This document shows positions 3 through 59,462 of a stretch of DNA of 64,000 nucleotides, in pieces. Position numbers and translations under genes: made by a program. Source of the stretch: a virus (taxonomy: Duplodnaviria > Heunggongvirae > Uroviricota > Caudoviricetes); IMG/VR virus record IMGVR_UViG_3300035698_029829, positions 7,427 to 71,426 of that record; one strand, written 5' to 3'. A model generated the notes under the pieces. It saw only the letters and a program-made list of their open reading frames with translations. It did no database searches and had not been told where the DNA came from. How positions within the stretch are numbered: the first letter of the stretch is position 1; each line of letters opens with the position of its first letter.

Positions 3-2861
3 GTCGCAGCCGCACCGGCAGCCGGTACCATCGCGAACGTCATGCGTGCCGCCGTACTCGTCGGTACCGTAGTAATCCTGGCCACCGGCGACAGCGGAGT
101 GGGTAATCCCGACCGTTACTATGCCTCGGTCTACCACGCCTCCGGTCTTGCACCGCAAGAGGGCGACACCCTCGATAGCGCGGGTAACCTCTACATCATC
201 AACAAAAGCTTCGAGGACCGCGACCTGGCTATCTACGTCGACAATTCCGCACCCATCACGCTCGCAGGCGTTAACTGCACCGAAATCGACGACTCCTACG
301 TGGTCTTCCGGCAACCGATGGGTACCGTCTTCACAGACAGCGTCACCGCGCGCGATTTCGTCACCGGTGACATAGCCCCCTTCGGTGGAGTCACCGACCA
401 ACTCGCGGTTATCGGAGGAAACGTAACTACCACAGGAGCAACCTCAACCCTGGATGCCACCGTTCTTAACCAGTACCCCGGCGGCGGTCTAATGCTCGTC
501 TTGGCGCTGGACTTCGTTATTGCCGCTCAAACCTACACAGCCATCGCAGTGGTAGTGCCCGACGGCGAGACCTACTTCTCACAGGGTTTGTGGTGGCTGC
601 ACACGGCCGCCCCAGTCGTCAGGCCGCTGGTAGATCTCGTCACCATCTGCCCGGCCAATGGATTGACTGTTGATTTCACACAGGCTGGTTCGCGTGCCTT
701 CTTCAACACCGTAACGAATCTCATGGATGTTCACCTGATCGGTGTACAGACCAGTAGCGGTGACGCCGTAACAGCGGTGCGCTACGGTATTCTGATGGGC
801 GCACCCGAAGCTAAGTATGTGCGGTGCCCTTCCACCACTCCAGGTGCATCGGCTGGACCCAACCTCTGGAACCCGGACCCGGTCTTCAGCCCGCTAACCA
901 ACACCTTTAACGCAGGTGAGAAGGCACTCTCCCTCATCGACGACTACGGCGAAGGCTGGAATCTCCTCGGCCTATTGGTAGACGACACCTACTCCGTCGC
1001 CATCGACTTCAACAACTATTCCTTCCTCAACCGCGAAGCCGCCACAGCCTCGGAGGTGGCGAACGCCATCAACCTCCGTGCCAAGGCAGTCAACCTACTC
1101 CTGGATGGTCTCACAACGATTACCACAGGCGGCGCAGTGCAGTTGACAAGTCCTACCAAGGGCAGTTCCAGCAAACTTCAGTGCTCACTTGATAACCCGG
1201 CGCTCGATTTCAGTGCCATCACGATAGTGCCCGACGTAGGCTCCGGCTACCCCTATTTCTCTGTAAAGATTGATGGGGGCGCGCAATACGACATCGACTT
1301 CGGTGACTACGTCGGTGACCTGATCCAAAACCAATCCGCCGCGCTGGCATCGGAGGTAGCAGCTGCAATTCAACGCGCCATCGGCATCACCTCCACCCAG
1401 TGTTGGGACGGCGGCATCGGACCCACAAGTCAGGTGCACCTGACCTCGGCTATCGAAGGTTCCCAGGGTACCGTAGAGGTGGTCACTCCGAACCTTGGCC
1501 TCGCCGGAGGCTTCGGAGCCACCGGTACCACGGTCGGCACCGAGTCAACCGTCGCCCCTTGCACAGTCCTGGCGCTATCGCCTGGCACATGGGCCAACCC
1601 GCTTGAAGACAAAATCAAGCTCCGGTTCACCGATGAGGACGCGCTCTTTTACGCGCCATACTCATCCCAGGTGGACATCCTGGTCAACAACGTCATCGAA
1701 GAAACCTATCACGGCGTCGTAGCCGACCCGAACGCAGACGGCGATCCGACCTCAAACGGTACCGGCGTGTTCATTGAGAACGCGCTCGGCAACGCTTCCT
1801 CGGTAGCCAAAAAGGATAATCCCTCTGAATACATCTACACCGAATTCGACGAAGACATCACCGAAGGCGCAGGATACACCTCCGCAATCATGTTCATGGC
1901 AACGCCTACCAGCAGCGAGTACGAGCTGAGCGGCGGAGCTAACGGTATTGAAGCCTTGGATGAGTTCGACCTGATCGGCGTGGCGGATAGCTCCTACTGG
2001 GGCGGCCCAACCGGCCTCCAGGTGTGGCGCGACAAGGACAACCGATTCGTCAACCTCATGGTTACCCCTGGTGCAACGCAGTACAGCGTCATCTCTGAGA
2101 TGTTGAAAATCTGTGAGGCGCGCGGCGATGCCATGTGCATCGTTGACCCGCCATTTGGCCTCAAGCCGCCACAGGTCATCGAGTGGCACAACGGACGTGG
2201 TTTCGGTAACACGGCCGCAATCAACAGTAGCTACGGCGCGTTGTACTCCACCTGGGTTCTCTACAGCGACCCCTATAACAAGGAGAAACTGTGGCTGCCA
2301 CCGTCCTGTTTCATGCTGGCAGTTTACGCCTACAACGACAAGGTATCCGAGTCCTGGTTTGCCCCTGCGGGCCTGACGCGTGGCAAGGTGCCAGGAGCCG
2401 AACAGCTCCAGTACACACCAACCTTCGGCGAACGCGAGCTGATGTACGGTACCGGCAACTCGGTCAACCCCATCGTCGACTTCAGCCGTTACGGTATCAC
2501 CGTATGGGGTCAAAAGACGCTCCAACGAACCACTTCGGCGCTCGACCGCGTTAACGTCCGCCGGTTGCTCTTGTACCTCCGCACGATGGCCGAGCTGACT
2601 GCCCGGGTTATCGTATTCGAACCGAACGACGCCCTGAGCCGCCAGAAGCTCGTAAACATGCTCGAAGGCATTGCCAACGACGTAATGAGACGACGCGGCA
2701 TCCAGCGCGCGAAGATCGAAGACAAAACCACGAGTCGGCACATCAAGAAAAAGAGGGCGCGCATCGTGTTCTTCTTGGAGCCGACGGAGACGTTGGAAGT
2801 CATCGAAATTCCGTTCATCATTACCGGCTCCGGCGAAGCGTTCCTGGACGTGGAGGTCTAA
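3..2861 (+). CDS. Phage tail sheath protein (5' end outside window)
   Basis: C-terminal sheath motifs (WFAPAG, VWGQKTL, ALDRVNVRRL, FEPND); frame open to the window edge upstream of ATG 42. Confidence 0.9.
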   Translation, partial: VAAAPAAGTIANVMRAAVLVGTVVILATGDSGVGNPDRYYASVYHASGLAPQEGDTLDSAGNLYIINKSFEDRDLAIYVDNSAPITLAGVNCTEIDDSYVVFRQPMGTVFTDSVTARDFVTGDIAPFGGVTDQLAVIGGNVTTTGATSTLDATVLNQYPGGGLMLVLALDFVIAAQTYTAIAVVVPDGETYFSQGLWWLHTAAPVVRPLVDLVTICPANGLTVDFTQAGSRAFFNTVTNLMDVHLIGVQTSSGDAVTAVRYGILMGAPEAKYVRCPSTTPGASAGPNLWNPDPVFSPLTNTFNAGEKALSLIDDYGEGWNLLGLLVDDTYSVAIDFNNYSFLNREAATASEVANAINLRAKAVNLLLDGLTTITTGGAVQLTSPTKGSSSKLQCSLDNPALDFSAITIVPDVGSGYPYFSVKIDGGAQYDIDFGDYVGDLIQNQSAALASEVAAAIQRAIGITSTQCWDGGIGPTSQVHLTSAIEGSQGTVEVVTPNLGLAGGFGATGTTVGTESTVAPCTVLALSPGTWANPLEDKIKLRFTDEDALFYAPYSSQVDILVNNVIEETYHGVVADPNADGDPTSNGTGVFIENALGNASSVAKKDNPSEYIYTEFDEDITEGAGYTSAIMFMATPTSSEYELSGGANGIEALDEFDLIGVADSSYWGGPTGLQVWRDKDNRFVNLMVTPGATQYSVISEMLKICEARGDAMCIVDPPFGLKPPQVIEWHNGRGFGNTAAINSSYGALYSTWVLYSDPYNKEKLWLPPSCFMLAVYAYNDKVSESWFAPAGLTRGKVPGAEQLQYTPTFGERELMYGTGNSVNPIVDFSRYGITVWGQKTLQRTTSALDRVNVRRLLLYLRTMAELTARVIVFEPNDALSRQKLVNMLEGIANDVMRRRGIQRAKIEDKTTSRHIKKKRARIVFFLEPTETLEVIEIPFIITGSGEAFLDVEV

Positions 2862-2924: not shown

Positions 2925-5900
2925 ATGACACAGGAAGACAACCGCACCGTAGACGACCTGTTGGGAACCCAGCAGGATTCGCACAGAGACGCGCTGGGCG
3001 AAGAGTGGTGGCTCGAACGACCGGCCGACGACCGGACAGTAAACGAGTTGCTGAGCGAAGATCATCTGGACGAAAAAATCTCCGACGCCAAGGTAAACAA
3101 GATACGGCGTCTCCTGGGTGTTGGCGACGGTCATACCTGGCGTCCTTTCACCTCCATCGAAGACGCTGGCAATAAAGTTCAATGGGCCTATGTTGAATTT
3201 TTTAACGGTGGTGGTCTCTGGCACGTCCTCGTCGGCAACAAATACGAGATGATGGACCCCCACGCGTTTGGGCAATTCGACGAAGCATTAAATAGCGCCA
3301 TTCAAAACCACCCAAAAGCTATGACAGATTCCGCTGGAGCTAAGAAGTTCCTTTCTTCGCTCCCATTTATCAAAAAGATAGAGGCCGCAAAGGTAAAAAA
3401 CATCTCAGAAAACCCTCAACTGCGTGAAGACCAGTCGGGGAACGAATTATTGGGCGAAAGGCGCGCCCCTCTCCCAAAATTCGAAAACTGGCTTCGCGAC
3501 TTCATCCAAGCGAGACCTCAGAGCGAGAAGGAAATCCTTTCCGCCGTCAAACGGTGGAAATTCAAAGTCACCGACAAGCAGATCAGAGACGAGCTAAAGA
3601 GCTTCGAGGAAGACAAATACATCGCCAAAAAGGGTAACAAGTGGCGCTGGATCATGGCCTTCCGCGAAGATCGTGAAGTTCAGAAGGATGTGTACGCCAT
3701 CCTGGAAGATTGGGGCGTCCCGATCAACCCGGCAACGCCACTCGTGAGTGAACACTTCGACTCCGACGAAAGTGTAGCGACGGAACTGTACGACTTCATC
3801 GCCAACGACGGCGTCCTCTACCATCGACAATTCCAATCCATCCTAAAGAACTTCGCCACCAAGCTCGGCCAGGGCAAGTACGACCACAAGCTGTCCGTTA
3901 AGCTCTGGATGTACTTGGTCGACAATGGCGCGAAGAAATACGCAGAGGACATCGGCGGCATGGGCAGCGATGAAATCAAGCGTAAAAGTTTCTCTTCGCG
4001 GGGTTGGAACGACATGTTCCCTAAGAAGGTCCGCGAGATGGTCGCCAAGATGTTCGCCCACTGGTTCAAAGAGGAATGGAACCTCGGCAACTTCGCCAAT
4101 CTCCTACCCAAGAAGTACAAAAAAAACAAGTTGCCTCAGATCACCGAAGAAATCGACCACCCTTTTGTTGACGCTGAGTACGAGTTGGACGAGGAACTTC
4201 GAGCGTCGCTCGAACTCGACGAGCAGATCGGCATCAATGAAGTAAAAATGGTCTGGTGGGATGTCATTCTTAACGGAAAAGTCACTGACGAAATCCAATA
4301 CCCAGCCGACTGCGATGCTCAGTACGTCAAGGATTCTCTCATTGGGCATGACGGTTATGACCCCAAAATTAAAGTCCAAAAATCCAAGGGTCAACGCCTG
4401 CGCGAAGACCGTCTCGACGAAAAGAAAGACCACGGATTCGCCGTGGGCGACGAGGTTGTCCTTGCAAAGGACGCACTGGCAAAGCACTCCCATAGCATCC
4501 CGGCCCACATGGGCTACACCAAGGAAGAGTTCAGTTGGCGCGGCAAACTGTCAAAACGCCAAGACAAAAAGGAGTCCGCCAAGGTTACCCGGGTCTTCCC
4601 AAGCAGCGACCACATCAACATCACCTTCTCGGACAATCAGACCTTTGGTGTACCAGCCTACATGATCGAGAAGAAACCAATCCGCGAAAGCCTCGACGAA
4701 GCGTACCGCCCGATCCATCAGATCGCCGCCGAGATCAGGAAAGATTGGAAACGCGTCAATTACGCCGCCAAACCCTATCTCGATGCGATGGATCAACTCG
4801 ACGCCATCAGTGACAAATACTATTTTGACAGCGGCGCAAGCGTCGTCGCCTACTTCCTGGCCAACGCCCGGGCGTGGAAGGGCGAAGTCGCCAAACGCAT
4901 CAAGGCCGAGCTGAACGCCATGCTCAAAGGTAAGGCACTCCGTGAAGCCGTTGAGAACGAAGTTTCCATCGGCTTCGGCATCATCACCACCAGCGAGCAC
5001 CTCCTCAAGGACAACATCCAAGAGGACGGCCACCACGACAAGCGCAAGGTAGAACCGTTCATCAAAAAGGGTTGGATCGAGTATGACGAGCCCTCTGGCG
5101 TCGCGCAAATCACCAAAAAGGGTTGGGACCTCCTCAACAAAGACTTCCCGAAGATGGAGAAAAACGTCGTAACGTGGCTCGGAAAAACCTTCAATAACGC
5201 CCGTGACGAGGGCCACAGCGACGACGCGCTGGTCGGTACAACTTGGATAAACCCGACCAACAAAAAACACCTGGCGGCTTTGGAGGGTGATTCTAACGCC
5301 AGTAGCCGCGATCTTCGTGTTTATCGACGCGGCCCAGAGCACTTCAACCACGCCGAGTACATGAAATTCTATCAAGGTCTTTCTGAGTTCGGCAAGGCGT
5401 ACCTCGACGTGGACGTGGAGTTCTTCGATCTGCCACAGGATATTTTCGACGACCTTCGCGAAGCGAAAGAGGACATAAAGCTCAGCAAGAATGCGTTGAA
5501 GGTCTTCGATGTTTTTAAGCGATTCAAGCCAACCATCGGCGATTTTGCCAACGATGCTTACCGACTCGGTTTGGATGAAAAACGCATCCTCAAGGCGCTT
5601 GATGAGCTATTTGACAAGAAACTCATCCAAGCCATCGGCTCCCTTAAAGGCCGCGCAAACGACTTCAACTCCCAACGCGACAACCAATTCGAGATCAGCA
5701 ATTTCGCCCTCACAGCGAACATACACGAAAGCAGCGGCCATGAGATGGAGGAAGAGGACTACACCCTCACCCCCTCGGGCCACTTGGGTTCCAAAATCAA
5801 CGTCAGCATCGTCGGCGGCAAACATCTCGGCGAGTACAAGAATGAGGGTCTCGCATTAAAAGCCATCCGCGACCACATGAAAAAACACAACTTTAACCCC

Positions 5901-6734: not shown

Positions 6735-7436
6735 ATGGGCGTTCTAGGAATTGTGGGCAGCGCGGCCCAAGGAAACGCGGCAGGGGGCCTGGGGCGCTAC
6801 GACGTAAAGCGCAAGAATAGCTGGATTCTGCACTTTTCGAACTTCGGCTCCGAGGTCTTAAAAAATTCACTAACCATCCAGCTAAACTCGGCGACACGCC
6901 CCAGCTTCAGCACCGATGCCCAAGAACTTTTCTGGTGCAACGAGAGCTGGTTCGTCGCCAGCAAGCCGAAATACGGTGAGCTAGCGGTGGAGTTCTACGA
7001 TGCTCTTCCGACACAACTGGACTATTCCTATGTCCAAGCAGGTGTCAGCTCGCCACATCCGGACGGCAACGCCAATATGATTTCGGCAGGCCAGATTCTC
7101 TACGACTGGTGGCTCGCTATCTACGACCCCAGTTCCGGACGACTTGGCCTAGCCGCTGACTACAAAGCTGACGGCTTCATCACGGTTTACAACAGCGTAG
7201 ACACACCTGTTGAACGCTGGATGTACATCGGCTGTTTCCCCACTTCCATCGACTACGGATCACTGGAATACTCGGGGGCAGGCGATCCATTAACCATCGA
7301 CACCTCTTTCAAGTACGACAAGGCGCTGCGCCTGGCGAACCCGACGAGCGAACTGGAACCCACCAGTATCGACGAACAGCGCGGCCCCGAAAGCTACTCG
7401 CCGCTTGGCTTGAACTTGGTATCCGGCGCAGCCTGA
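6735..7436 (+). CDS. Tail tube protein (gp19-like)
   Basis: SD AAGGAGG; W..IYDP..G.LG...DYK and W...GCFPTSIDYG.LEY pattern; position after sheath. Confidence 0.8.
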   Translation: MGVLGIVGSAAQGNAAGGLGRYDVKRKNSWILHFSNFGSEVLKNSLTIQLNSATRPSFSTDAQELFWCNESWFVASKPKYGELAVEFYDALPTQLDYSYVQAGVSSPHPDGNANMISAGQILYDWWLAIYDPSSGRLGLAADYKADGFITVYNSVDTPVERWMYIGCFPTSIDYGSLEYSGAGDPLTIDTSFKYDKALRLANPTSELEPTSIDEQRGPESYSPLGLNLVSGAA

Positions 7437-33172: not shown

Positions 33173-33284
33173 CCCCCGCCCATTGGGAAATCAGGACTCG
33201 AACCTGAGCGACCGGGGGTGACCTGCTCTACCAGTTGAGCTACCAAGGCAAGCCTTGGACGGGGCTTGAACCCGCGTCTTGGTC
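33173..33284 (-). ncRNA. Circularly permuted tRNA-elbow RNA with a second T-arm module
   Basis: GACC, T arm, CCAAGG-CTTG-CCTTGG closed acceptor, D arm, GGTC; then CCCCCG/CGGGGG enclosing another T arm. Confidence 0.7.
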
Positions 33285-33285
33285 T

Positions 33286-33361
33286 TGGTGGACAGAACCG
33301 GGATCGAACCGGCGACATTCGCCTTGCAAGGGCGACGCTCTTCCAACTGAGCTACCTGCCC
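33286..33361 (-). tRNA. tRNA-Ala(TGC), second copy
   Basis: G3-U70, loop CT-TGC-AA, CCA. Confidence 0.9.
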
Positions 33362-35876: not shown

Positions 35877-35979
35877 TGAGAAGAACAGAAAGAGGACGCT
35901 GTGCTGCTTCGCGAGTTCAAGCGTCGCTCGAACAAACTCCCGCGCGTCAGGGTAAAAGGGTGACCGCCACCACAGATGA

Positions 35980-36461: not shown

Positions 36462-36593
36462 TGACCGCGAGAGTTGGCGGTAACGGTGATTACTACGGGG
36501 ATCGAACCCGCATGACCCTTTCGGGTCGTCAGTTTTGTGGACTGATGCCTAAACCAATTCGGCGAAGTAACCGGTACCTGTGCTGCGCGGCCA
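36462..36593 (-). ncRNA. Y RNA-like module carrying a complete class II tRNA (anticodon ACA)
   Basis: TGGCCGCG/CGCGGTCA, CAGCACAG/CGCCAACTCT loop, N8 stem continuous with acceptor GGTTACT/AGTAATC. Confidence 0.72.
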
Positions 36594-39259: not shown

Positions 39260-39637
39260 GATCGCCTTGCGCTGCGTTGCGCTGCGCGCCGCACAATTAC
39301 CAGGTCCTAAAACGTCAAAAGCCTCCCAAGTTCCCTTGAGAGGCTTCCGACTGTTGGTGACGAGGTCTGGTTTAGTCGGAAGCCCCCCGTATAGGCACGA
39401 TACCGAGCAGGCTATCAGCGGTGGACGGCAATGCCGTCACGGCCGCCGAACGCACTCCTGCTGGGCACGACGCGGTTAGCGTCGCAGCTAAGCGAGCTGT
39501 CTGTATGTGCGTGTTACGGTTCATTTCCAACCACTCCATGCGCCTTTTGGCACTAAATTTTGTTCGCGAGATAAGCGCGCCAGGCGGCCTGTGCATCTCG
39601 AAAGAAACGAAGTAGCCCAGCACTGTGCTGCGCGAAC
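39260..39637 (-). ncRNA. Large structured RNA beginning with the Y RNA-like module
   Basis: Starts at promoter 39667; GCGCAGCACAG-TGCTGGGC-TACTTCG, partner GCCCAGCA at 39459-39466, several hairpins, tandem CGCAGCGCAA near 3' end. Confidence 0.65.
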
Positions 39638-48223: not shown

Positions 48224-48299
48224 CACCCCCGGCAGGATTCGAACCTGCAACCCTCGGATTAGAAGTCCGACGCTCTAATTCCAATTGAGCTACGGGGGT
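48224..48299 (-). tRNA. tRNA-Arg(TCT)
   Basis: Loop CT-TCT-AA. Confidence 0.92.
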
Positions 48300-48307
48300 A
48301 TACGTAG

Positions 48308-48383
48308 TGGCCCCGGCGGGACTCGAACCCGCGACCTACCGCTTAGGAGGCGGTCGCTCTGATTCCAACTGAGCTACGGAGCC
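48308..48383 (-). tRNA. tRNA-Arg(CCT)
   Basis: Loop CT-CCT-AA. Confidence 0.92.
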
Positions 48384-48549: not shown

Positions 48550-48693
48550 GAGTCCGGCGGCGAGAGTGAGCGGCGTGGGGGTATTGGCTCACTTGGTGGG
48601 AGTTGAACCCACGTCCTTCAGATTAATAGTCTGCTGCTCTACCATCAGAGCTTCAGGTGAAGTACCCCACGCCTGTGCTGCGCCGCCAGGCTC
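48550..48693 (-). ncRNA. Y RNA-like module carrying a complete tRNA-Asn-like body (anticodon ATT)
   Basis: Begins about 14 nt after the Ro60 stop; GGCGGCG/CGCCGCC, CAGCACAG/CGCTCACTCT, N8 stem; tRNA at 48585-48660 with U1-A72, G73, CCA. Confidence 0.78.
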
Positions 48694-48706: not shown

Positions 48707-50866
48707 TCAATATGTTGCCCGAATCTCTTCGAGCGTCATCCGCTTCCGCCCGCTCTCGCTGACGGTCGCCTCAATCACCGTTTCATCGACCTCCAGATCG
48801 GCGCTCGACACCTCTGCTTTGCGCCCCACCTCAGCGGACACCATCATGTCGAAGATGTACTCGCTGAAGCCCGACAGCAGGTTTACGTTCGTGTGCCGGT
48901 CGAGCGGCGTCACCGCCATGTGGTTGTGGTCGAGGTTGACACAGTGCAACCAAGTATCCGGCTGCATCCGCTTGAACTTCTCCCACTCCCCAGCGAAGGA
49001 TAGCAACGCCCGACCATCGTTCCCCGCGAAACTGTCGGTGTAGATATTCTGGTCGTTCCAGAACTGCTGATCCGAGAACACGATCACCCGCTTGAACTTA
49101 CGACCCGTCTGAAGCAGCAACGACGGCACCAAGTGAACGTTCGTGCTGTGCCCAACGTACAAGTCGGAGTACAGTTCGTTGCGAGCGATTCGTTCCATGC
49201 TGGATACGACCGAATCGCGCTTCAGCACCTGACGGATCTGTGCGCTCTCACCGAAAGCGACAACCAGTGTGCGCGGGTTACGCTTGGCCGCGATGGCTCC
49301 GAAGAGAGCAGCCACCTCACGACAGCTGATCTCAGAACCCTGGCCCCTGGCGTCCTTCTTCTCGTCGCCACTTGACACCCGGTTATCCATCGATCCGGAC
49401 AGGTCGACCAAAATCGCGGTGTACTCGTCGGCCGCATCAGCTTCGCTCAAATTTGGTACGCTCTCGGCCTGAAGCTCCATCGCCTCGATAACCGCCTCAT
49501 GGACCTCATCGAGTTGCGGGTGCTTCTCCCAACCGGTCTTATCGCTCTTCCCAAAGGTATTCCCGCTCCATAGCTTCGCATGGATCGAACCCTTGGTGTA
49601 CAGGCCCTCAGTACCCAGCGCCCGCAGTGCCGACCAGTAACGGTACGGGAACTGCCGCGCCTTCGCGATGGCTTGCCGGTTCGTCAGCTTCGAAATCACG
49701 AGTCGCACCGTCTCGGCGTTACGCTCATCCACGAGTTTCAAGCCCTCGGCCTTCTTGACCTTCGCCCGGGCCTCGGCCCCGGCGGTCAAGATGTTCCGGA
49801 CGTTCCGCAAGAGATTCATGTACGACGTGTTCCGAGCAACCCACGCCCAAGTGCGAGCATCGGAGCCCCATTGCGACGTAACGTTCTCCTGCGTCAAACG
49901 GGCAACCTTGACGAGCCGCTCCGTCTCCGCGTCGAACTCCATCCGCTTGAATGCCTTGACGCGAGCCACGATCAGCGGCATCTCACGCTCGGCATCGAAC
50001 GGTACGATCTGCCCGCCGCAGTAGGTCTTGCCGTTGTCGGTTGATCGCTCGCAGATACCGTAATTATCAGCGAACAGCGTTCCACATTTCTCACAGACGC
50101 CGGTTGGCAGCCTGCGTTTGAGCAGGTAAAACCACTTCGCCGAGGACCACCGCTTGCGCCGACCTTTCTTACGGAAATCGACGAGATGCAGCAAATCCGT
50201 AAACGTCGGGTGCTGCTCAGTATCGTATTTCAGGAGCAATCCGGCGTCGAACCTGGTCAGCGCGTCCATAAGCCCGCGCAGAAAGGCGTTCGGGTGCTTC
50301 TTGGCACGCACGTAACCCTTGTTCACATCCAAATCACCGAAGAGTGCTTCGTAGGCGGCCAGCGCCACACGCGGCTCGTCGGCTCGCAGGCAAATCTTCG
50401 GAGCGTACAACCGCACCAGTGACTGCTGGTCAAGCTTCGTCCCTGCGAGTGGTGCCTGGAGTACCCGCGTACCGTCTTCGTGGGCGGCCACAGCCAGGAG
50501 TACCTGAGCTGCCGTCCGGATGTTAAGTTTGTCGCGCGCGAACGCGGCGATCTTAAACAAGTCGCTGGCGTACCCATCCGTGCGAGCCGCAACCTCTTGA
50601 GCCGTCTGAATCAGGACATTGTCGCCCTCAGTCAACCCCAACTCATCACGCCCCTTGTCGTAGAAACTGGTCTCCTTGAAGAAGCCCGCTGCTACCAAGT
50701 TGAGCAAGCGTTCCGACGGGTCCTTGATGTTGAATGCCAACGCACCCTCCGCGTTCTCGCCCACCTCGTCCAATTCGCGCAGGTCGACCTCAGTCTTCAC
50801 CTCGACGGCGCGAGCGCGATCCTTCAGAGTTTTCTGCGTGTTCTTCTGCATTCCGATCTTAGCCAT
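48707..50866 (-). CDS. rsr: Ro60/TROVE-domain RNA-binding protein with C-terminal vWA domain
   Basis: ERL.......E.SFY, FARDKLNIRT, RADE, KY, LLRNVRNIL, RQFPYRY.SA, VDLSGSM, FSD.Q. Confidence 0.88.
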   Translation of the reverse strand: MAKIGMQKNTQKTLKDRARAVEVKTEVDLRELDEVGENAEGALAFNIKDPSERLLNLVAAGFFKETSFYDKGRDELGLTEGDNVLIQTAQEVAARTDGYASDLFKIAAFARDKLNIRTAAQVLLAVAAHEDGTRVLQAPLAGTKLDQQSLVRLYAPKICLRADEPRVALAAYEALFGDLDVNKGYVRAKKHPNAFLRGLMDALTRFDAGLLLKYDTEQHPTFTDLLHLVDFRKKGRRKRWSSAKWFYLLKRRLPTGVCEKCGTLFADNYGICERSTDNGKTYCGGQIVPFDAEREMPLIVARVKAFKRMEFDAETERLVKVARLTQENVTSQWGSDARTWAWVARNTSYMNLLRNVRNILTAGAEARAKVKKAEGLKLVDERNAETVRLVISKLTNRQAIAKARQFPYRYWSALRALGTEGLYTKGSIHAKLWSGNTFGKSDKTGWEKHPQLDEVHEAVIEAMELQAESVPNLSEADAADEYTAILVDLSGSMDNRVSSGDEKKDARGQGSEISCREVAALFGAIAAKRNPRTLVVAFGESAQIRQVLKRDSVVSSMERIARNELYSDLYVGHSTNVHLVPSLLLQTGRKFKRVIVFSDQQFWNDQNIYTDSFAGNDGRALLSFAGEWEKFKRMQPDTWLHCVNLDHNHMAVTPLDRHTNVNLLSGFSEYIFDMMVSAEVGRKAEVSSADLEVDETVIEATVSESGRKRMTLEEIRATY

Positions 50867-50940
50867 GACACTTTCCTCCTCCGGCGAGAAATTGGTGTTG
50901 CGCCGGATTTTACGACCAGCCACCATGACCAGCCGTCACC

Positions 50941-51475: not shown

Positions 51476-51552
51476 TGGTAGATGCGGGGGGGAGTCGAAC
51501 CCCCAACGTCTTGATTAAGAGTCAAGTGCTCTGCCAATTGAGCTACACATCC
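51476..51552 (-). tRNA. tRNA-Lys(CTT)
   Basis: Loop CT-CTT-AA, CCA. Confidence 0.92.
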
Positions 51553-51559
51553 ACAGTAG

Positions 51560-51632
51560 TAGGCGCGAAGGGACTTGAACCCTCAACGTCCGGATTAAAA
51601 GTCCGGTGCTCTACCAGTTGAGCTACGCGCCC
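51560..51632 (-). tRNA. tRNA-Lys(TTT)
   Basis: Loop CT-TTT-AA. Confidence 0.92.
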
Positions 51633-55255: not shown

Positions 55256-56184
55256 TCTCTCACTTTAACCCAGGATGGCCGTCCCGGCAGATCACGCACG
55301 TTCAAGATGGGCGGGCACTGCTTAGCCTTCCACGCACCACGGTTCGTCAGACGCACGATCTCCCCATAAGCCTCGGACGCCTTCAAGGAAGGCCATCCAC
55401 ACTGGTTAACGAGATAATCCATAAGCTCGGTCTGATCCAGACAGCCTTGAAAGTAGAAAAAGTACAGAGCCTGATCCAGCTGTTCGTAGGGCATCAACTC
55501 GTCTTCATCCAACTGTCCTTCGCTCAACTCCGCCGTGGGCTTGCGCGTAAAGACTTTCTCGGGAATCATCTGCTGCGGGTACGCCTCGTTGTAGGCACGA
55601 CCCACCTCGTAGGCTTCCGTCTTGAACAAACATCCGATCACCTCGACGGCCCCCACGGTATCGCCGTAGAGCGTGCAGTAGCCCGTCAGCGTCTCCGAGA
55701 GATTGCTGGTGGCCAGCACGAGCCGATCCAACTTATTGGCCAAGGTCATCAGTATGGTTCCACGCACACGGGCTTGGAGATTCTCTCGTGCCACGCCCTC
55801 TACGCGGAACGAGCCCGTGGGCACATCATTCATCAGCATGGCGTTCATTTCGACCAGCGCCGCAATGGGAACCGTATCAAACTGGCACCCCAACGACACC
55901 GCCACCTGATCGGCGAGCTGCTTCGACTCATCCGAGGTCACGGCCGACGGCATGAATACCGCCAGCACGTTCTGAGGTCCGAGGGTTTTACACGCAACGG
56001 CTGCTACGAGCGCAGAATCAAAGCCACCCGACAGACCAACGATGGCCTGCGTGTAGCCCGCTTCGCGAAAGAACTGGTGCAACAGAGCCACCAGATCATC
56101 GAAAATCCTGAGCCATACGGTAGTCACGGGAACCTCCCAGTTGAGTCTGGTACCAAGTCTACCAAATCGACCAGGGTTTGTCAA
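55252..56184 (-). CDS. nadE: NAD+ synthetase (no glutaminase domain)
   Basis: GLSGGFDSA, ENLQARVR, TSN.SE...GY.TLYGD, FKTE, PTAEL..GQ.DE. Confidence 0.93.
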   Translation of the reverse strand: MTNPGRFGRLGTRLNWEVPVTTVWLRIFDDLVALLHQFFREAGYTQAIVGLSGGFDSALVAAVACKTLGPQNVLAVFMPSAVTSDESKQLADQVAVSLGCQFDTVPIAALVEMNAMLMNDVPTGSFRVEGVARENLQARVRGTILMTLANKLDRLVLATSNLSETLTGYCTLYGDTVGAVEVIGCLFKTEAYEVGRAYNEAYPQQMIPEKVFTRKPTAELSEGQLDEDELMPYEQLDQALYFFYFQGCLDQTELMDYLVNQCGWPSLKASEAYGEIVRLTNRGAWKAKQCPPILNVRDLPGRPSWVKVRE

Positions 56185-56192
56185 GAGTTTTG

Positions 56193-56269
56193 TGGTGGGC
56201 CGGGACGGGATTGAACCGCCGACGCCTGCGGCTTCAACGCAGCGCTCTACCGAACTGAGCTACCGACCC
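56193..56269 (-). tRNA. tRNA-Phe(GAA)
   Basis: Loop TT-GAA-GC, CCA. Confidence 0.9.
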
Positions 56270-56277
56270 ATGATAAG

Positions 56278-56348
56278 CACCGGTGACAGGATTCGAACCT
56301 GCATCGCGTCTTTTGGAGAGACGTTGCCTAACCATTGGCGACACCGGC
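56278..56348 (-). tRNA. tRNA-Trp(CCA)
   Basis: Loop CT-CCA-AA, G73. Confidence 0.88.
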
Positions 56349-56353
56349 AAAAG

Positions 56354-56491
56354 TTGTGGCGAGAGTGAGCGAAGAGGGAACGTAAAAGTGCTCTACCAAC
56401 TGAGCTACGGGACCCGAAGGCCCCGACGGGACTTGAACCCGCGACCACTCGATTTGGAATCGAAGTAGCCCTCTCCTGTGCTGCGCCACAA
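56354..56491 (-). ncRNA. YrlA-type Y RNA (permuted tRNA domain, acceptor closed by UUCG)
   Basis: TTGTGGCG/CGCCACAA, module motif, TTCGA-TTCCAAA-TCGAG, T arm, CGGGGCC-TTCG-GGTCCCG, D arm. Confidence 0.82.
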
Positions 56492-56501
56492 TTTCTAAAA
56501 T

Positions 56502-56576
56502 TGGAGACGACGGTCGGAGTCGAACCGACCTATAAGGTTTTGCAGACCTTCGCCTAAACCGCTCGGCCACGTCGTC
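56502..56576 (-). tRNA. tRNA-Cys(GCA)
   Basis: Loop CT-GCA-AA, U73, CCA. Confidence 0.9.
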
Positions 56577-56725
56577 AAAAGTAACGACAACTCGGACAGG
56601 CATCACACCTGCCATCTCCTCCGGCTGAGGGCGCATACTTGAAAGCACCAACCAAGCGCAATCTTTCCACTCCCCATCCCCTTGTGGGCTCTATACTTGA
56701 GCTACGAGTCACCGGGTTTAACTGT

Positions 56726-58117
56726 TTACTGAGAAGCCAGAAATTCCCGAAGAAACATCCGGCCACCTTCCTCATCCTCAAACTTCCCGTCAAGCTGCGC
56801 TTCGAAACAGGCATCCAGCACAGGACGAAAGTGCTTGCCTGGGTTCCAACCCAGATCCATCAGGTGCCGACCCATCACAATGGGTTTCGGGGCCTGATCT
56901 CGCACGCCGAGTTCTTCGATGCGTTCCAAGAGCCACGTTGCAAACCGGTTATCAGGCTTCAAAGGAGGCCGACCGGCCTGATCGCACGCGGCTACCCGCA
57001 ACAACCGATCTACGCGCTTAACGCGACGAGCGAGCCGCCGGATCGCCGAACTAGAGGCTTTTACCTCGAAAAGTTCAAGGGGCTTCAGGTGTTCCACAAC
57101 CAAGTCGCAAACCTCGGTGTCGAGGCCGTGTTCGTTGGTCAAGCGTGCCAGGAAGCTCCGCGTCGGTGCGGCCCCCGCCGCTTCGTGTCCCTTCGACTTC
57201 CAGCGTCCATCTAAGAACGCGGTCGTCTCAGGCTTACCAAAGTCATGACAGAGTACCGCCAACCCGACCACCAGGTCTTCGCGAGAATCGCCGGTGCGTG
57301 TATGCGCGAAGGCATCCAGACAGTGCTTGGTGTGTTCAAACACATCCCCCTCGGGATGCCACGCTGGATTTTGCGGGCAATCCACGAGAGCCTCGACCTC
57401 CGGAAAGAACCGAAGCCACCCTACCTCGCGCAGGAAGTCGAGTCCAAGCGACGGTCGAACTCCCCGCAGGAGTAACTTCTGCCACTCATCGAACAGGCGT
57501 TCCTTCGGCAGATCCTCGATGTCGCCGCGCCGACAAACCTCAACGAGATCGTCGGACGGCTCAAAGTCGAACCGTGCCAGGAACTGCGCCGCTCGTAAGA
57601 CCCTCAATGGGTCCTCCAAAAAAGCGTCGGGGTTGGGGTGACCGGGCATCCGAGAAACCGGATGTAACAGGCGTGCCCGCAGATGCGTCTGACCGTCAAA
57701 CGGATCAAACAGATCATCGGTTAACGGGTCCCAGGATAAAGAGTTGATGGTGAAATCTCGACGTGCCGCCGCTTCAGCGACGGTCATGGTTGGATCGGAG
57801 TTGATCTCGAAACCTCGGTGTCCGAGACCTCGCTTGCTCTCGCGGCGAGGGATGGACACGTCGACGGGGAAATCCTTCAGTTTGAGTACACCGAAATCTT
57901 TACCAACCAGGTCAAGTGCGAAACCATGCGACAGCGTGTCGACCAATCTGTCGGGGCTAAGGCCGAAAACCTCTACGTCGAGATCATTCGGCTCATTCTC
58001 CAATAGAAGATCGCGCACACAACCGCCAACGAGTAGCGCGCGTCCACGCGCCCTCTCTACGCTCCGGCAAAGGGAAAGCAGCGCTTCCCGCGCCGGAAGC
58101 CGATGAAGTGCTTCCAT
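56726..58117 (-). CDS. cca: CCA-adding enzyme/tRNA nucleotidyltransferase with HD domain
   Basis: VGGCVRD, DLDVE, RRDFTIN, EDPLRVLR, ERL..EW.K, H.EGDV..H, LCHDFGK. Confidence 0.9.
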   Translation of the reverse strand: MEALHRLPAREALLSLCRSVERARGRALLVGGCVRDLLLENEPNDLDVEVFGLSPDRLVDTLSHGFALDLVGKDFGVLKLKDFPVDVSIPRRESKRGLGHRGFEINSDPTMTVAEAAARRDFTINSLSWDPLTDDLFDPFDGQTHLRARLLHPVSRMPGHPNPDAFLEDPLRVLRAAQFLARFDFEPSDDLVEVCRRGDIEDLPKERLFDEWQKLLLRGVRPSLGLDFLREVGWLRFFPEVEALVDCPQNPAWHPEGDVFEHTKHCLDAFAHTRTGDSREDLVVGLAVLCHDFGKPETTAFLDGRWKSKGHEAAGAAPTRSFLARLTNEHGLDTEVCDLVVEHLKPLELFEVKASSSAIRRLARRVKRVDRLLRVAACDQAGRPPLKPDNRFATWLLERIEELGVRDQAPKPIVMGRHLMDLGWNPGKHFRPVLDACFEAQLDGKFEDEEGGRMFLREFLASQ

Positions 58118-58147
58118 GATGTTCTCCCTTCGCGTTAATGTTGATAA

Positions 58148-58221
58148 CTCCTGGAGAGGGAATCGAACCCCCGACATCTCGGTTAACGGCCGAGCGCTCT
58201 GGCCTGCTGAGCTATCCAGGA
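58148..58221 (-). tRNA. tRNA-Asn(GTT), C33
   Basis: U1-A72, G73, loop CC-GTT-AA. Confidence 0.9.
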
Positions 58222-58898
58222 ATAATTCCGTACCTTTTAGCCCACTTCCGAACCGCATTGTCGGTCACTCCATACCGTTTGCCGATCTGCGTGAATGGGA
58301 TCTTCTCGTCAATCAGATTCATGAGTTCGTCTTTCGAGGGCCACTCGACTTTTCTGCGCGCCAACTGAAAGCACTTCTGTGAACAGAACTTCTGCCTTAT
58401 TTTCTTAGGAGCCCCACAGATAGGACAGGGATCAACAGGGGCCTCGCGCTTCGGAAAGGCTCTCGACTCATCGCGAAGGCTAGAAATACGCACGCGATAA
58501 TCCTCGGCCCAGAGCGGCTCTCGCCCGTTGCTCCCTTTTAACGGGGCAACCCTCAGCGAGCACCAGCTAGTACCAACAGCCTCTACCGGAACCAAATAAA
58601 CCTCATCCAGTTCAGGACAAAACACCCCAAAAAACTCACACTGGCCTCGGTAATTTCTTGTACCTCGCCCTCGGTGAGCATAGCTACTACACAAATTGAA
58701 CCCTATCGCACCGTTCTTCAAGCGACCCGTCTTAACCTGAATCCGCACAAAAACGCCGTCGCGATCAAGCACCAGGTCGTAGCGTTGATTATCGCCGAAA
58801 GGAAACAAGACAACCTCAGCCGCCTTCAACAAAGAAGCCATCACAGCCGCTTCTGACCGTTCGCCTATCGCCTTCGAGTTCATCTGCACCTCCAACAA
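58212..58898 (-). CDS. PD-(D/E)xK endonuclease of the group I intron-associated type
   Basis: G..SE, RYDLVLD..G..VRIQVKTG; CPIC and C-terminal HTH; TAG stop is U8-A9-G10 of tRNA-Asn. Confidence 0.78.
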   Translation of the reverse strand: MLEVQMNSKAIGERSEAAVMASLLKAAEVVLFPFGDNQRYDLVLDRDGVFVRIQVKTGRLKNGAIGFNLCSSYAHRGRGTRNYRGQCEFFGVFCPELDEVYLVPVEAVGTSWCSLRVAPLKGSNGREPLWAEDYRVRISSLRDESRAFPKREAPVDPCPICGAPKKIRQKFCSQKCFQLARRKVEWPSKDELMNLIDEKIPFTQIGKRYGVTDNAVRKWAKRYGIIPG

Positions 58899-58949
58899 AG
58901 TTCTACGTTATCTTCATTGGAGGTGCAGGTTCGATGTTCAATAAATAGG

Positions 58950-59077
58950 AGCGGCGAGAGTAGGTGATAAGGGGTTTTCTTACCCCGCATTGTGCGGGGT
59001 CTTGGAGTCGAACCAAGTTGCTCTAGCTTTGGAAGCTATTGCTTAACCGAAGTATCCCTGATCTGTGCTGCGCCGCT
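58950..59077 (-). ncRNA. Y RNA-like gene with a differently permuted tRNA-Trp mimic
   Basis: AGCGGCG/CGCCGCT, module motif, CTT-CGGTT-AAG, TAGC-TTCCAAA-GCTA, T arm, ACCCCGCA-CAA-TGCGGGGT. Confidence 0.75.
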
Positions 59078-59097
59078 TTTTCGTATTCATGGAACAG

Positions 59098-59172
59098 TTC
59101 GGGAGGCAGGACTCGAACCTGCACATTCCAGCTTCAAAGGCTGGCGACCTTGCCAAATTAGTCCACTCCCGA
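59098..59172 (-). tRNA. tRNA-Gln(TTG)
   Basis: U1-A72, loop CT-TTG-AA. Confidence 0.88.
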
Positions 59173-59184
59173 TCAAAATCGTAT

Positions 59185-59259
59185 TGGTGCTCCCGAGGAG
59201 AATTGAACTCCTCCCTCCGGGTTGAAGGCCCGGTATCCTAACCGATAGACGACGGGAGC
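59185..59259 (-). tRNA. tRNA-Glu(TTC), C33
   Basis: Loop CC-TTC-AA, CCA. Confidence 0.88.
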
Positions 59260-59339: not shown

Positions 59340-59462
59340 ACAAAAAACGAGGGGGAAGGGGTTCGCCCTCCCCCCTCGGTGGTTTTCATGGCGACGAATG
59401 AACATATTTAATTGTCAAAGAACGAACTTTCTTTGCACTCCGACGAGAGCGCAGCATCGTGA

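What the first reader, a model, noticed from the sequence alone, without database searches (positions are those of the whole stretch)
56354..59077. Two Y RNAs mimic tRNA-Trp using different circular permutation points
Seen: 56354-56491 runs anticodon arm (TT-CCA-AA), T arm, UUCG-closed acceptor, D arm, so the break is between D and anticodon arms. 58950-59077 runs D-like arm, anticodon arm (TT-CCA-AA), T arm, CAA-closed acceptor, so the break is at about position 8. Both keep a Trp anticodon loop yet cannot be charged; the real tRNA-Trp lies 5 nt from the first. Inference: independent solutions to presenting a Trp anticodon and elbow on Ro60, implying selection by a tRNA-Trp-recognising factor.
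Basis: partly seen in the sequence, partly recalled or inferred. Interest (0 to 1): 0.76.

Follow-up and report, generated by a model that had tools for sequence, protein, structure and literature searches.

The report
Phage Y RNAs built from permuted tRNAs
Two small RNA genes in an uncultured salt-lake phage are Y RNAs (partners of the Ro60 protein) whose working end is a rearranged tRNA; both show a tryptophan-type anticodon loop, but that triplet differs in every relative, so specific copying of tRNA-Trp is not supported.

Summary
The sequence features are real. RNA1 (56354-56491, minus strand) is a YrlA-type Y RNA. Its cargo is a complete circularly permuted tRNA; re-joined in silico it gives a 72-nt cloverleaf that ARAGORN calls tRNA-Trp(CCA). 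RNA2 (58950-59077) shares the constant module. It keeps the hairpin, T arm and loop-closed acceptor but has no D arm, only a conserved GGNUAA strand 5' of the hairpin. Both hairpin loops read UUCCAAA.

Twenty RNA1-type homologues from phages, proviruses and bacteria support every helix by covariation. The hairpin is usually anticodon-loop-like: 7 nt, with U at position 2. Its triplet varies (GUU commonest, then GUA, UUU, CAU and others), and CCA occurs only in this window. The RNA2 orthologue has CGUAAA. RNA1's body is closest to the phage's tRNA-Arg(CCU), not its tRNA-Trp.

The hairpin was already drawn as a "V stem-loop" of YrlA by Chen et al. 2014. What is new is its anticodon-arm character with a variable triplet, and RNA2's architecture without a D arm. 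Function is inferred only: a tRNA mimic on phage Ro60 that tethers or titrates a tRNA-binding factor. This scan had already noted the five-member family in this same window.

The parts
56354..56491 (-). RNA1: YrlA-type Y RNA carrying a complete circularly permuted tRNA
   Evidence: Rfam YrlA 46.4 bits, E 1.8e-8, below the gathering score of 69. Own model R1 scores 160.6 bits. Covariation. The re-joined sequence is a 72-nt cloverleaf.
56476..56486 (-). RNA1 5' constant block GCGCAGCACAG (probable Ro60-binding side); the 3' counterpart CACUCUCG lies at 56360-56367
   Evidence: Identical block in five paralogues of the window. GGCGCAG is one mismatch from the GNCGAAN0-1G motif of Chen et al. 2014. 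Binding was not tested.
56448..56464 (-). RNA1 anticodon-arm-like hairpin UUCGA-UUCCAAA-UCGAG (loop at 56453-56459)
   Evidence: This helix is 96.8% paired with 3 pairs changed on both sides in 20 homologues. The loop is 7 nt in 18/20 and has U at position 2 in 17/20.
56426..56442 (-). RNA1 T arm (loop UUCAAGU), preceded by the class-I-type variable loop UGGUC at 56443-56447
56408..56425 (-). RNA1 7-bp acceptor stem closed by UUCG
   Evidence: Six of its 7 pairs change on both sides among homologues.
56390..56405 (-). RNA1 D arm GCUC-AGUUGGUA-GAGC
58950..59077 (-). RNA2: Y RNA paralogue with hairpin, T arm and closed acceptor but no D arm
   Evidence: Shared constant blocks. Fold z-score -5.4. 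R1 scores 31.6 bits. Syntenic orthologue at L089:1732-1865.
59023..59039 (-). RNA2 anticodon-arm-like hairpin with loop UUCCAAA (59028-59034)
   Evidence: The orthologue has AAUAGU-CGUAAA-ACUAUU: the closing pair changes C-G to U-A and the loop lacks CCA.
59043..59048 (-). RNA2 GGUUAA strand, a possible D-loop substitute
   Evidence: GGAUAA in L089. UGGUUAA and UGGUAUA sit before the T arm in the two-arm RNAs of L197 and L196. The role is inferred.
59001..59017 (-). RNA2 T arm CUUGG-UUCGACU-CCAAG
   Evidence: Identical in the L089 orthologue.
58982..59000 (-). RNA2 8-bp acceptor-like stem closed by CAA
   Evidence: Three compensatory changes against L089 (CUCGCCA-AUUA-UGGCGAG), read.
56277..56348 (-). 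Genuine phage tRNA-Trp(CCA), 5 nt downstream of RNA1
   Evidence: The same adjacency is found in L089 and L179.
48707..50926 (-). TROVE/Ro60-like gene (739 aa as listed), presumed protein partner
   Evidence: Pfam TROVE E 9e-8. tblastn matches phage 'Ro-like RNA binding protein' genes. A relative, P0124, also carries vWA_Ro60.
56726..58117 (-). CCA-adding enzyme gene lying between RNA1 and RNA2
   Evidence: PolyA_pol head, RNA-binding and HD domains. About 55-69% identical to annotated CCA-adding enzymes.
48556..48687 (-). Paralogue Y-a (un-permuted tRNA-like cargo), directly 3' of the TROVE gene
36463..36592 (-). Paralogue Y-b (un-permuted tRNA-like cargo with a long variable arm)
39562..39637 (-). 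Paralogue Y-c (76 nt, no tRNA-like cargo)
   Evidence: Orthologue at L040.

Best explanation
RNA1 and RNA2 are two of at least five paralogous Y RNAs of a large, uncultured salt-lake phage. All five share one stem-and-loop module that presumably binds the phage's own Ro60 (TROVE) protein.

RNA1 is a YrlA-type Y RNA of the kind found in actinobacteria. Its cargo is a whole tRNA in circularly permuted order: hairpin, 5-nt variable loop, T arm, loop-closed 7-bp acceptor, D arm. The Y stem enters at the junction of tRNA positions 26 and 27. RNA2 is a reduced relative that keeps the hairpin, T arm and closed acceptor. In place of a D arm it has a conserved GG-containing strand 5' of the hairpin.

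The hairpin is the anticodon arm of the ancestral tRNA. Earlier work drew it as a 'V stem-loop'. It keeps anticodon-loop architecture, but its triplet changes freely between homologues. CCA is a peculiarity of this phage, not a conserved Trp signal.

Inferred mechanism, not shown: the tRNA-shaped end is recognised by a tRNA-binding factor, such as a processing, modification or repair enzyme, or a host tRNA nuclease. The RNA either tethers that factor to Ro60 or titrates it, within a tRNA and RNA-repair gene island.
For: Identity:
- Five loci share GCGCAGCACAG...GGNUACUUC...(A)CUCUCGC and a closing stem. A reversed-sequence control gave 0 hits.
- A TROVE gene lies on the same strand, and a TROVE gene is present in 5 of 5 other viral records that hold RNA1-type RNAs.
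- Rfam YrlA matches RNA1 with E 1.8e-8.

Structure:
- With 3 orthologues, 98.3% of cells pair and 10 pairs change on both sides.
- With 20 homologues, 95.6% pair and 28 pairs change on both sides; 0/500 shuffles reach this, and slid controls pair at 37-49%.
- Re-joined RNA1 is a textbook 72-nt cloverleaf, 60/72 identical to the phage's tRNA-Arg(CCU).
- It keeps U8, A14, G15, G18, G19, G46, C48 and U54-U55-C56 (read from the sequence).

Hairpin as anticodon arm:
- It has a 5-bp stem. The loop is 7 nt in 18/20 homologues, with U at position 2 in 17/20, and it is followed by UGGUC in 16/20.
- Model R1 also matches junctions of adjacent tRNAs (model positions 28-102). This fits the dimeric pre-tRNA origin proposed in bioRxiv 10.1101/312249.

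The triplet varies:
- Triplets seen are CCA (window only), GUU x7, GUA x2, UUU x2, CAU, CUG, UUC, CGG, AGG, GCA and UGU.

Context:
- RtcB, RlaP, a CCA-adding enzyme, 51 tRNA genes and a tmRNA lie in the window.
Against: - No binding or expression data exist.
- Both RNAs fall below Rfam's curated YrlA threshold: 46.4 against 69 bits for RNA1, and no match for RNA2.
- RNA1 and RNA2 lie 5.4 and 8 kb from the TROVE gene rather than beside it.
- The alignments used for covariation were fitted to my own model, which favours its structure.
- RNA2 rests on a single orthologue.
- The identical 7-nt loop on two unrelated stems in one genome is not explained by free drift. No other genome with two RNA1-type paralogues shows the same triplet twice.
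- Topologically the hairpin could equally be the variable arm of a class II-like tRNA, with the Y stem acting as the anticodon stem. That is how Chen et al. 2014 drew it.
Confidence: 0.75

Rival explanations
1. Both RNAs are selected to present a tRNA-Trp anticodon loop and elbow on Ro60 to a tRNA-Trp-specific factor such as TrpRS, a Trp-specific anticodon nuclease or a T-box.
For: The same 7-nt loop, UUCCAAA, sits on two hairpins with unrelated stems. The family keeps anticodon-loop architecture. RNA1 lies next to tRNA-Trp in three phages. No other genome with two paralogues repeats a triplet, so chance identity is unlikely. My rough estimate is 1/64 to 1/1000 per pair, before allowing for multiple comparisons.
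Against: CCA occurs in none of the 19 other RNA1-type homologues, nor in the RNA2 orthologue. The nearest orthologues carry GUA and GUU-type loops, and two of them are 6 nt long. RNA1's body is closest to tRNA-Arg(CCU), whose loop CUCCUAA is two changes away, and not to tRNA-Trp. There is no discriminator base and no free 3' end.
Confidence: 0.12
2. The hairpin is a structural relic of the ancestral tRNA, or simply a variable arm. Only its stem matters, its loop drifts neutrally, and the identical loops are coincidence.
For: The loop triplet differs in almost every homologue. Some loops are 6 or 8 nt, and L197 has a 5-nt loop. Chen et al. 2014 call this element a 'less-conserved' stem-loop. 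A 2026 preprint reports greater variation in the anticodon-arm-equivalent region of other tRNA mimics.
Against: Loop length is 7 nt in 18/20 and U at position 2 is kept in 17/20. The last two positions read AA in 12 of the 18 seven-nt loops, counted from the same table. By my estimate, drift from base composition would give this whole pattern in about 2% of loops. GUU recurs in distant lineages: Streptomyces, a Mycobacterium MAG and jumbo phages.
Confidence: 0.25
3. RNA1 is a permuted pre-tRNA, or a two-piece tRNA. RNase P opens the UUCG-closed 7-bp acceptor and the phage CCA-adding enzyme adds CCA. The result is a nicked tRNA-Trp-like molecule that could be charged while still attached to the Y stem, or could be released after ligation by RtcB.
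For: M. smegmatis YrlA has the same architecture and a 7-bp acceptor, and it is cut by RNase P and gains CCA in vivo (PMC4201824). RNA1's acceptor is also 7 bp. A CCA-adding enzyme gene lies between RNA1 and RNA2, and RtcB is in the window. Re-joined RNA1 is a perfect cloverleaf. Permuted tRNA genes are processed to working tRNAs in some algae (cited in 10.1101/312249).
Against: The phage already encodes a tRNA-Trp 5 nt away. The L089 orthologue has a 6-nt loop that could not decode. No bulge-helix-bulge splice motif was seen, though it was not searched for formally. RNA2 has no D arm, and its acceptor is 8 bp.
Confidence: 0.1

Closest known systems
YrlA Y RNAs (Rfam RF02553; S. Typhimurium, M. 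smegmatis; Chen et al. 2014 PMC4201824; Wang et al. 2018 bioRxiv 10.1101/312249)
   Same: The 5' and 3' ends pair into a stem that holds the Ro60 site. The cargo is T arm, loop-closed acceptor and D arm in that order, described as a circularly permuted tRNA. Many members have a stem-loop upstream of the T arm. The M. smegmatis probe sequence implies CCA-CUUCUAA-UGG followed by AAUGGUC, which is the RNA1 layout. The acceptor is 7 bp, as in M. smegmatis.
   Different: RNA1 scores below Rfam's gathering score. The published drawings treat the upstream hairpin as a variable arm and state that YrlA lacks an anticodon loop. Here the hairpin has anticodon-arm dimensions and is followed by a class-I variable loop. 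The genes are phage-encoded, sit inside a tRNA array, and belong to a set of five paralogues.
YrlB, and the two-arm Y RNAs that carry only a T arm
   Same: RNA2, like M. smegmatis YrlB, keeps a T arm but is not a full tRNA mimic. Related two-arm forms, with T arm plus closed acceptor, occur in L196, L197 and L188.
   Different: RNA2 keeps an anticodon-arm-like hairpin and a closed 8-bp acceptor.
D. radiodurans Yrn1
   Same: Chen et al. modelled it with a different orientation of the T and D elements relative to the RNA ends, and with a possible 'anticodon arm' of 5 bp and a 6-nt loop. So Y RNAs with different permutation points already have a precedent.
   Different: Yrn1 lacks a clear D arm and variable region, and no dihydrouridine was detected in it. 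There is no sequence similarity to RNA2 beyond the T arm.
Circularly permuted tRNA genes (Cyanidioschyzon merolae and others; Soma et al. 2007, as cited in 10.1101/312249)
   Same: [quoted passage not shown] Re-joining gives a normal cloverleaf.
   Different: Those genes are processed into working tRNAs by a splicing endonuclease at a bulge-helix-bulge motif. Here the joining stem is a conserved Ro-type module shared with RNAs that are not permuted.
Thermus phage phiLo Ro60 with Yrl1 and Yrl2 (NAR 2025, PMC12135203)
   Same: A phage-encoded Ro60 with more than one phage-encoded Y RNA. That work proposes hijacking of a host enzyme (PNPase).
   Different: Per that paper's text, its Yrls were identified by a CGAA motif and secondary-structure prediction. 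No tRNA-like cargo is mentioned in the passages I read.

Membership tests
YrlA-type Y RNA | Encoded with a Ro60/TROVE gene | tested here: met
   A TROVE ORF lies at 48707-50926 on the same strand. RNA1 and RNA2 are 5.4 and 8 kb away, and paralogue Y-a is adjacent to it. TROVE is found in 5/5 other viral records with RNA1-type RNAs, against 2/14 control genomes.
YrlA-type Y RNA | 5' and 3' ends pair into a stem that carries a conserved Ro60-binding motif (GNCGAAN0-1G on the 5' strand) | tested here: inconclusive
   The outer stem covaries, with 8 of 10 pairs changed on both sides. The 5' block GGCGCAG is one mismatch from the published motif. The Rfam alignment placed its Ro stem on a different helix.
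YrlA-type Y RNA | tRNA-like cargo in the order T arm, loop-closed acceptor, D arm, with the nucleotides for tRNA tertiary contacts | tested here: met
   Met for RNA1. RNA2 meets only the T arm and closed acceptor; its D arm is absent.
YrlA-type Y RNA | Reaches Rfam's gathering score (69 bits) | tested here: not met
   RNA1 scores 46.4 bits and RNA2 has no match. The homologues L182, L180, L179 and L197 score 38-45 bits.
YrlA-type Y RNA | Bound by Ro60 in vivo | not testable with these tools
   Needs immunoprecipitation or a gel-shift assay.
tRNA-Trp mimic | CCA triplet in the hairpin loop conserved in homologues | tested here: not met
   CCA occurs in 0 of the 19 other RNA1-type homologues. 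It is also absent from the L026 RNA, L196:4057-4198, L180:6983-7119 and the partial relative seen. The RNA2 orthologue has CGUAAA.
tRNA-Trp mimic | Body resembles tRNA-Trp | tested here: not met
   Re-joined RNA1 is 49/72 identical to the phage tRNA-Trp, against 60/72 for tRNA-Arg(CCU). The host's tRNA-Trp is unknown.
tRNA-Trp mimic | Discriminator base and free CCA end for TrpRS | tested here: not met
   The acceptor is closed by UUCG (RNA1) or CAA (RNA2). Opening by RNase P is possible by analogy with M. smegmatis but was not tested.
Functional circularly permuted tRNA gene | Processing motif at the joined ends, and a decoding-competent 7-nt anticodon loop kept in orthologues | tested here: inconclusive
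   The loop is 7 nt in most homologues but 6 nt in the syntenic L089 orthologue. The joining stem is the shared Y module. No formal search for a splice motif was made.

The most novel reading that the evidence does not exclude
The hairpin upstream of the T arm in YrlA-type Y RNAs is a true anticodon arm whose triplet is re-set between lineages and paralogues. These Ro60 RNPs would then display a chosen anticodon to an anticodon-reading factor, such as a host anticodon nuclease, a synthetase or a modification enzyme, acting as decoy, sensor or tether. In this phage, two paralogues were independently re-set to CCA. [quoted passage not shown]
Probability: 0.2. Interest if true: 0.85.

Novelty: new variant of a known kind. 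Interest (0 to 1): 0.5.

Why it matters
The partner of the tRNA-like end of YrlA RNAs is still unknown, and published work points to the elbow. This family shows that many YrlA-type RNAs, in phages and in actinobacteria, also keep an arm with anticodon-loop architecture whose triplet varies. That gives a testable handle: swap the triplet and look for a change in bound proteins or in phage success. It also shows that the current Rfam threshold misses these RNAs. Finally, one phage can hold complete, D-arm-less and un-permuted tRNA cargos on a single Ro module. For the specific claim of tRNA-Trp mimicry, the result is mostly negative.

Tried and rejected
- A strict motif scan of IMG/VR gave 17 loci, of which only L015/L026 was real.
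- The metagenome motif scan gave 55 loci, of which only L040 and L080 were real. Both are orthologues of other paralogues, not of RNA1 or RNA2.
- A single-protein TROVE scan of viral contigs found no relative.
- Eighty viral loci around CCA-adding enzyme genes held no family member, either by descriptor or by model R1.
- L178, a relative by its NadE gene, has no RNA between tRNA-Cys and tRNA-Trp. L177 and L092 are too short to reach the RNA positions.
- A 22-mer from a diverged relative seen in the laid contigs was not found in IMG/VR.
- A PDB sequence search with the TROVE protein gave no match.
- Sequencing runs: no RNA holder was listed, so nothing can be said about expression. The laid contigs showed the same phage without differences over RNA1 and RNA2 in four other salt-lake runs. 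They gave only a partial view of one diverged relative.
- MAFFT misaligned the L026 RNA and the RNA2 hairpin. Those alignments were not used for counting.
- The Rfam alternative, in which GAGU pairs with ACUU after the D arm to make a YrlA-style anticodon stem, was rejected. L089 supports only 2 of 4 such pairs, whereas the local hairpin is kept everywhere.
- A sixth motif match at 35881-35907 lies inside an ORF and lacks the 3' block.
- Complementarity of UUCCAAA to the tRNA-Pro(UGG) loop was considered. I dismissed it as a generic property of complementary anticodon loops.
Full report
**Setting.** The window is part of a 156.7-kb IMG/VR virus record that CheckV rates 62% complete. Other notes of this scan describe it as an uncultured salt-lake phage, and the sequencing runs that hold it are labelled salt lake metagenome. 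It carries 51 ARAGORN tRNA calls (two of them inside Y RNA paralogues) and a tmRNA gene, all on the minus strand. Protein genes on the same strand include a TROVE/Ro60-like ORF at 48707-50926, a CCA-adding enzyme at 56726-58117, RtcB, RlaP, a NUDIX protein, NAD synthase and several DNA methylases.

**The observation.**
- RNA1 (56491 to 56354) has an 8-bp outer stem, the block GCGCAGCACAG and a second stem. Then come the hairpin UUCGA-UUCCAAA-UCGAG, the five nucleotides UGGUC, a T arm with loop UUCAAGU, and a 7-bp stem closed by UUCG. UA follows, then a canonical D arm (GCUC-AGUUGGUA-GAGC), an unpaired stretch, and the returning strands.
- RNA2 (59077 to 58950) has the same outer blocks, a hairpin with the same loop UUCCAAA on an unrelated stem, a T arm, and an 8-bp stem closed by CAA.
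- tRNA-Trp(CCA) starts 5 nt after RNA1.
- Both RNAs fold far better than shuffled controls, with z-scores of -4.5 and -5.4.
- Rfam's YrlA model matches RNA1 at 46.4 bits (E 1.8e-8), below its gathering score of 69. It does not match RNA2.

**A family, not a pair.** The 5' block occurs at five places in the window, and nowhere else in the phage record in that form. A descriptor made of the 5' block, UACUUC, the 3' UCUCG and a closing stem found these five and no hit in reversed controls.
- The other three members are Y-a (48556-48687, directly behind the TROVE gene), Y-b (36463-36592) and Y-c (39562-39637).
- Y-a and Y-b hold un-permuted tRNA-like cargos. Y-c is only 76 nt long.
I had found it independently beforehand.

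**Relatives.** Close relatives are rare.
- The CCA-adding enzyme led to a syntenic 11-kb contig, L089 (69% identical enzyme). It holds orthologues of both RNAs.
- NAD synthase led to L179, which has an RNA1 orthologue between tRNA-His and tRNA-Trp.
- Pattern scans for the variable loop plus T arm, followed by a covariance model built from the three orthologues, found RNA1-type RNAs in further IMG/VR phages and proviruses.
- They also found RNA1-type RNAs in bacterial genomes: Streptomyces, Actinomadura, Nonomuraea, Actinoplanes, Microbispora, a Mycobacterium MAG, Deinococcus xinjiangensis and a Hoeflea MAG.
- All five other viral records that carry such RNAs encode a TROVE protein.
- All RNA1-type RNAs tested stay below Rfam's YrlA threshold, at 38-46 bits.

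**Structure of RNA1.**
- With three orthologues, 98.3% of cells pair and 10 pairs change on both sides.
- With 20 sequences (19 distinct), 95.6% pair and 28 of 39 pairs change on both sides. No shuffle of 500 reaches this, and slid controls pair at 37-49%.
- Every helix is supported, including the hairpin (96.8% paired, three pairs changed on both sides).
- These larger alignments were fitted to my own model, which leans towards its structure.
- Cutting RNA1 at the Y stem and re-joining it in tRNA order gives a 72-nt cloverleaf. It has a 7-bp acceptor, a 4-bp D stem, a 5-bp anticodon stem, a 7-nt loop, a 5-nt variable loop and a 5-bp T stem. ARAGORN calls it tRNA-Trp(CCA).
- The nucleotides that make tRNA tertiary contacts are all present: U8, A14, G15, G18, G19, G46, C48 and U54-U55-C56.

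**Anticodon arm or variable arm?** Chen et al. [quoted passage not shown] They drew it as the variable arm, with the Y stem as the anticodon stem. Wang et al. 2018 state that YrlA lacks the anticodon loop. Topologically the two drawings are the same. Four points favour the anticodon-arm reading here.
- The hairpin has a 5-bp stem and a 7-nt loop in 18 of 20 homologues, with U at loop position 2 in 17 of 20.
- It is followed by UGGUC, a class-I variable loop, in 16 of 20.
- Eight unpaired nucleotides, rather than one, separate the D stem from the Y stem in RNA1.
- Re-joined RNA1 aligns over its whole length with the phage's tRNA-Arg(CCU) at 60 of 72 positions, hairpin on anticodon arm.

Model R1 also matches junctions of adjacent tRNA genes. 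This fits the published idea that YrlA arose from a dimeric pre-tRNA. The probe sequences in the 2014 paper imply that the M. smegmatis YrlA, which was studied experimentally, has the same layout: CCA-CUUCUAA-UGG, then AAUGGUC. RNA1 is thus a phage member of a known class, and the hairpin itself is not new.

**RNA2.** Only one orthologue was found (L089:1732-1865).
- The hairpin is kept with a compensatory change at its closing pair.
- The T arm is identical.
- The acceptor-like stem has three compensatory changes.
- Nothing like a D arm follows the acceptor. Where RNA1 has UA, the D arm and a linker, RNA2 has UA followed by AGAAAA.
It falls to 2 bp in L089. ARAGORN accepts a re-joined RNA2 in only 3 of 12 join choices.
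- What is conserved is a GG-containing strand, GGUUAA or GGAUAA. Similar strands, UGGUUAA and UGGUAUA, precede the T arm in two-arm Y RNAs of other phages. This strand could supply the G18-G19 partners of the T loop.
- The order of elements therefore does correspond to a different permutation point, near position 8. The simplest history, however, is loss of the D arm from an RNA1-type ancestor rather than an independent invention.
- Different orientations among Y RNAs also have a precedent in Yrn1.

**The Trp claim.** They are not.

RNA1-type loops in alignment A8:

| Loop | Occurrences | Where |
|---|---|---|
| UUCCAAA | 1 | window only |
| CUGUUAA | 4 | L182, L215, L292, L206 |
| UGGUUAA | 1 | L180 |
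| CUGUUGA | 1 | L259 |
| AGUUAA | 1 | L089 |
| CUGUAAA | 1 | L179 |
| CUGUAAC | 1 | L234 |
| CUUUUAA | 1 | L263 |
| CUUUUCA | 1 | L234 (second copy) |
| CUCAUAA | 1 | L269 |
| CUCUGAA | 1 | L240 |
| CUUUCAA | 1 | L181 |
| CUGCAAA | 1 | L196 |
| CUUGUAA | 1 | L218 |
| UUCGGGA | 1 | L272 |
| UUAGGGA | 1 | L209 |
| ambiguous 8-nt loop | 1 | L181 (second copy) |

Outside that alignment:
- L196:4057-4198 has CUGUUAA, and L180:6983-7119 most likely has CUCGCAA.
- The L026 RNA has CUAGAAA.
- A diverged relative seen only as a loose contig end probably has AUGUUAA.
- The RNA2 orthologue has CGUAAA.
- In paralogue Y-a the 'anticodon' also differs between close relatives: AUU here, CUU in L173 and L080, and an 8-nt loop in L174.

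RNA1's body is 83% identical to the phage tRNA-Arg(CCU), whose loop CUCCUAA is two changes from UUCCAAA. It is 68% identical to the phage tRNA-Trp. The adjacency to tRNA-Trp is conserved in L089 and L179, whose loops are not CCA. That adjacency therefore reflects gene order, not function.

**What remains odd.** Two hairpins with unrelated stems carry the same seven loop letters in one genome. In the five other genomes where two such paralogues can be compared (L089, L180, L181, L196, L234), the triplets differ. Conversion of exactly seven nucleotides without flanking homology seems unlikely. Either chance or a shared constraint in this phage is at work, and with one genome I cannot tell which. 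The family-wide retention of anticodon-loop architecture with a changing triplet, GUU being commonest, is compatible with two readings. It could be a tRNA relic under weak constraint, or a displayed element re-set between lineages.

**Mechanism.**
- Shown here: RNA structure, family membership, co-occurrence with Ro60, and variability of the triplet.
- Established for relatives: YrlA RNAs bind Ro60, fold like tRNA and are modified by tRNA enzymes. M. smegmatis YrlA is cut by RNase P and extended with CCA (PMC4201824; 10.1101/312249). A phage Ro60 with its Y RNAs assembles with host PNPase (PMC12135203).
- Inferred: in this phage the tRNA-shaped ends recruit or titrate tRNA-binding factors on a Ro60 platform. 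This would act within an island devoted to tRNA supply and RNA repair.
- The statement that these RNAs cannot be charged should be softened for RNA1. It has the 7-bp acceptor that made the mycobacterial RNA an RNase P substrate, and a CCA-adding enzyme gene lies between RNA1 and RNA2.

**Verdict.** Y RNA identity and differing element order are supported. Trp-specific selection is not supported. RNA1 is a new, phage-borne member of the YrlA class. RNA2's form without a D arm, and the anticodon-arm character of the 'V stem-loop', are modest new variants.

Noticed in passing
window 56156-56190 (-); also L089 about 5130-5160, L177 about 128-150, L178 about 1760-1780, L179 about 400-420: A promoter-like box, AAAACTCTTGACAAA, sits just upstream of the NAD synthase gene and is conserved in four related phage contigs. 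It is probably a phage promoter consensus.
   Followed up: partly
window 58212-58898 (-): An ORF with PD-(D/E)XK endonuclease and HTH domains lies between RNA2 and tRNA-Asn. It is absent at that position in the syntenic relative L089, which suggests a mobile, homing-endonuclease-like insertion.
   Followed up: no
window 48585-48660 (-); L173:4069-4144; L174:2965-3040: The tRNA-like cargo of paralogue Y-a changes its 'anticodon' between close relatives: AUU in the window, CUU in L173 and L080, and an 8-nt loop with CUUA in L174.
   Followed up: partly
window 48272-48354, 51518-51612, 33224-33298 (-): The RNA1 covariance model also matches junctions between adjacent tRNA genes (model positions 28-102) and the free-standing T-acceptor-D modules noted by another finding. 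This fits an origin of the cargo from tRNA dimers.
   Followed up: partly
L180:7047-7190 (-): Two tandem RNA1-type Y RNAs produce an above-threshold Rfam tRNA match (38.3 bits) that spans both. It uses the acceptor 5' strand and D arm of one and the hairpin, T arm and acceptor 3' strand of the next.
   Followed up: no
L196:2538-2628; L197 around 7296-7315 (-); L188 around 108-127 (-): These are smaller Y RNA-like genes with the local constant module (GCCGA...GGUUAUC), a GG-containing linker, a T arm and a UUCG- or GCAA-closed acceptor. They have no hairpin and no D arm, so they form a two-arm class.
   Followed up: no
window 48707-50926 (-): The TROVE ORF is listed as 739 aa (the database copy is 719 aa), against 521-576 aa for the TROVE frames of the other phages. 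Pfam matches only residues 345-437. Only three relatives exist in a 5.8-billion-protein collection (77%, 57% and 55% identity).
   Followed up: partly
window 56726-58117 (-): The phage CCA-adding enzyme is 55-60% identical to many cellular enzymes, one of them labelled Thermoanaerobaculia. This suggests recent capture from a host lineage.
   Followed up: no
window 56200-59200: Contigs with no differences from the window over RNA1 and RNA2 occur in four further salt-lake sequencing runs from different studies. The phage therefore recurs across samples.
   Followed up: partly
window 59348-59378 (-): A strong terminator-like hairpin (13 bp, then a T run) sits just upstream of tRNA-Gln(CUG). It probably marks the start of the transcription unit that contains RNA2.
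   Followed up: no
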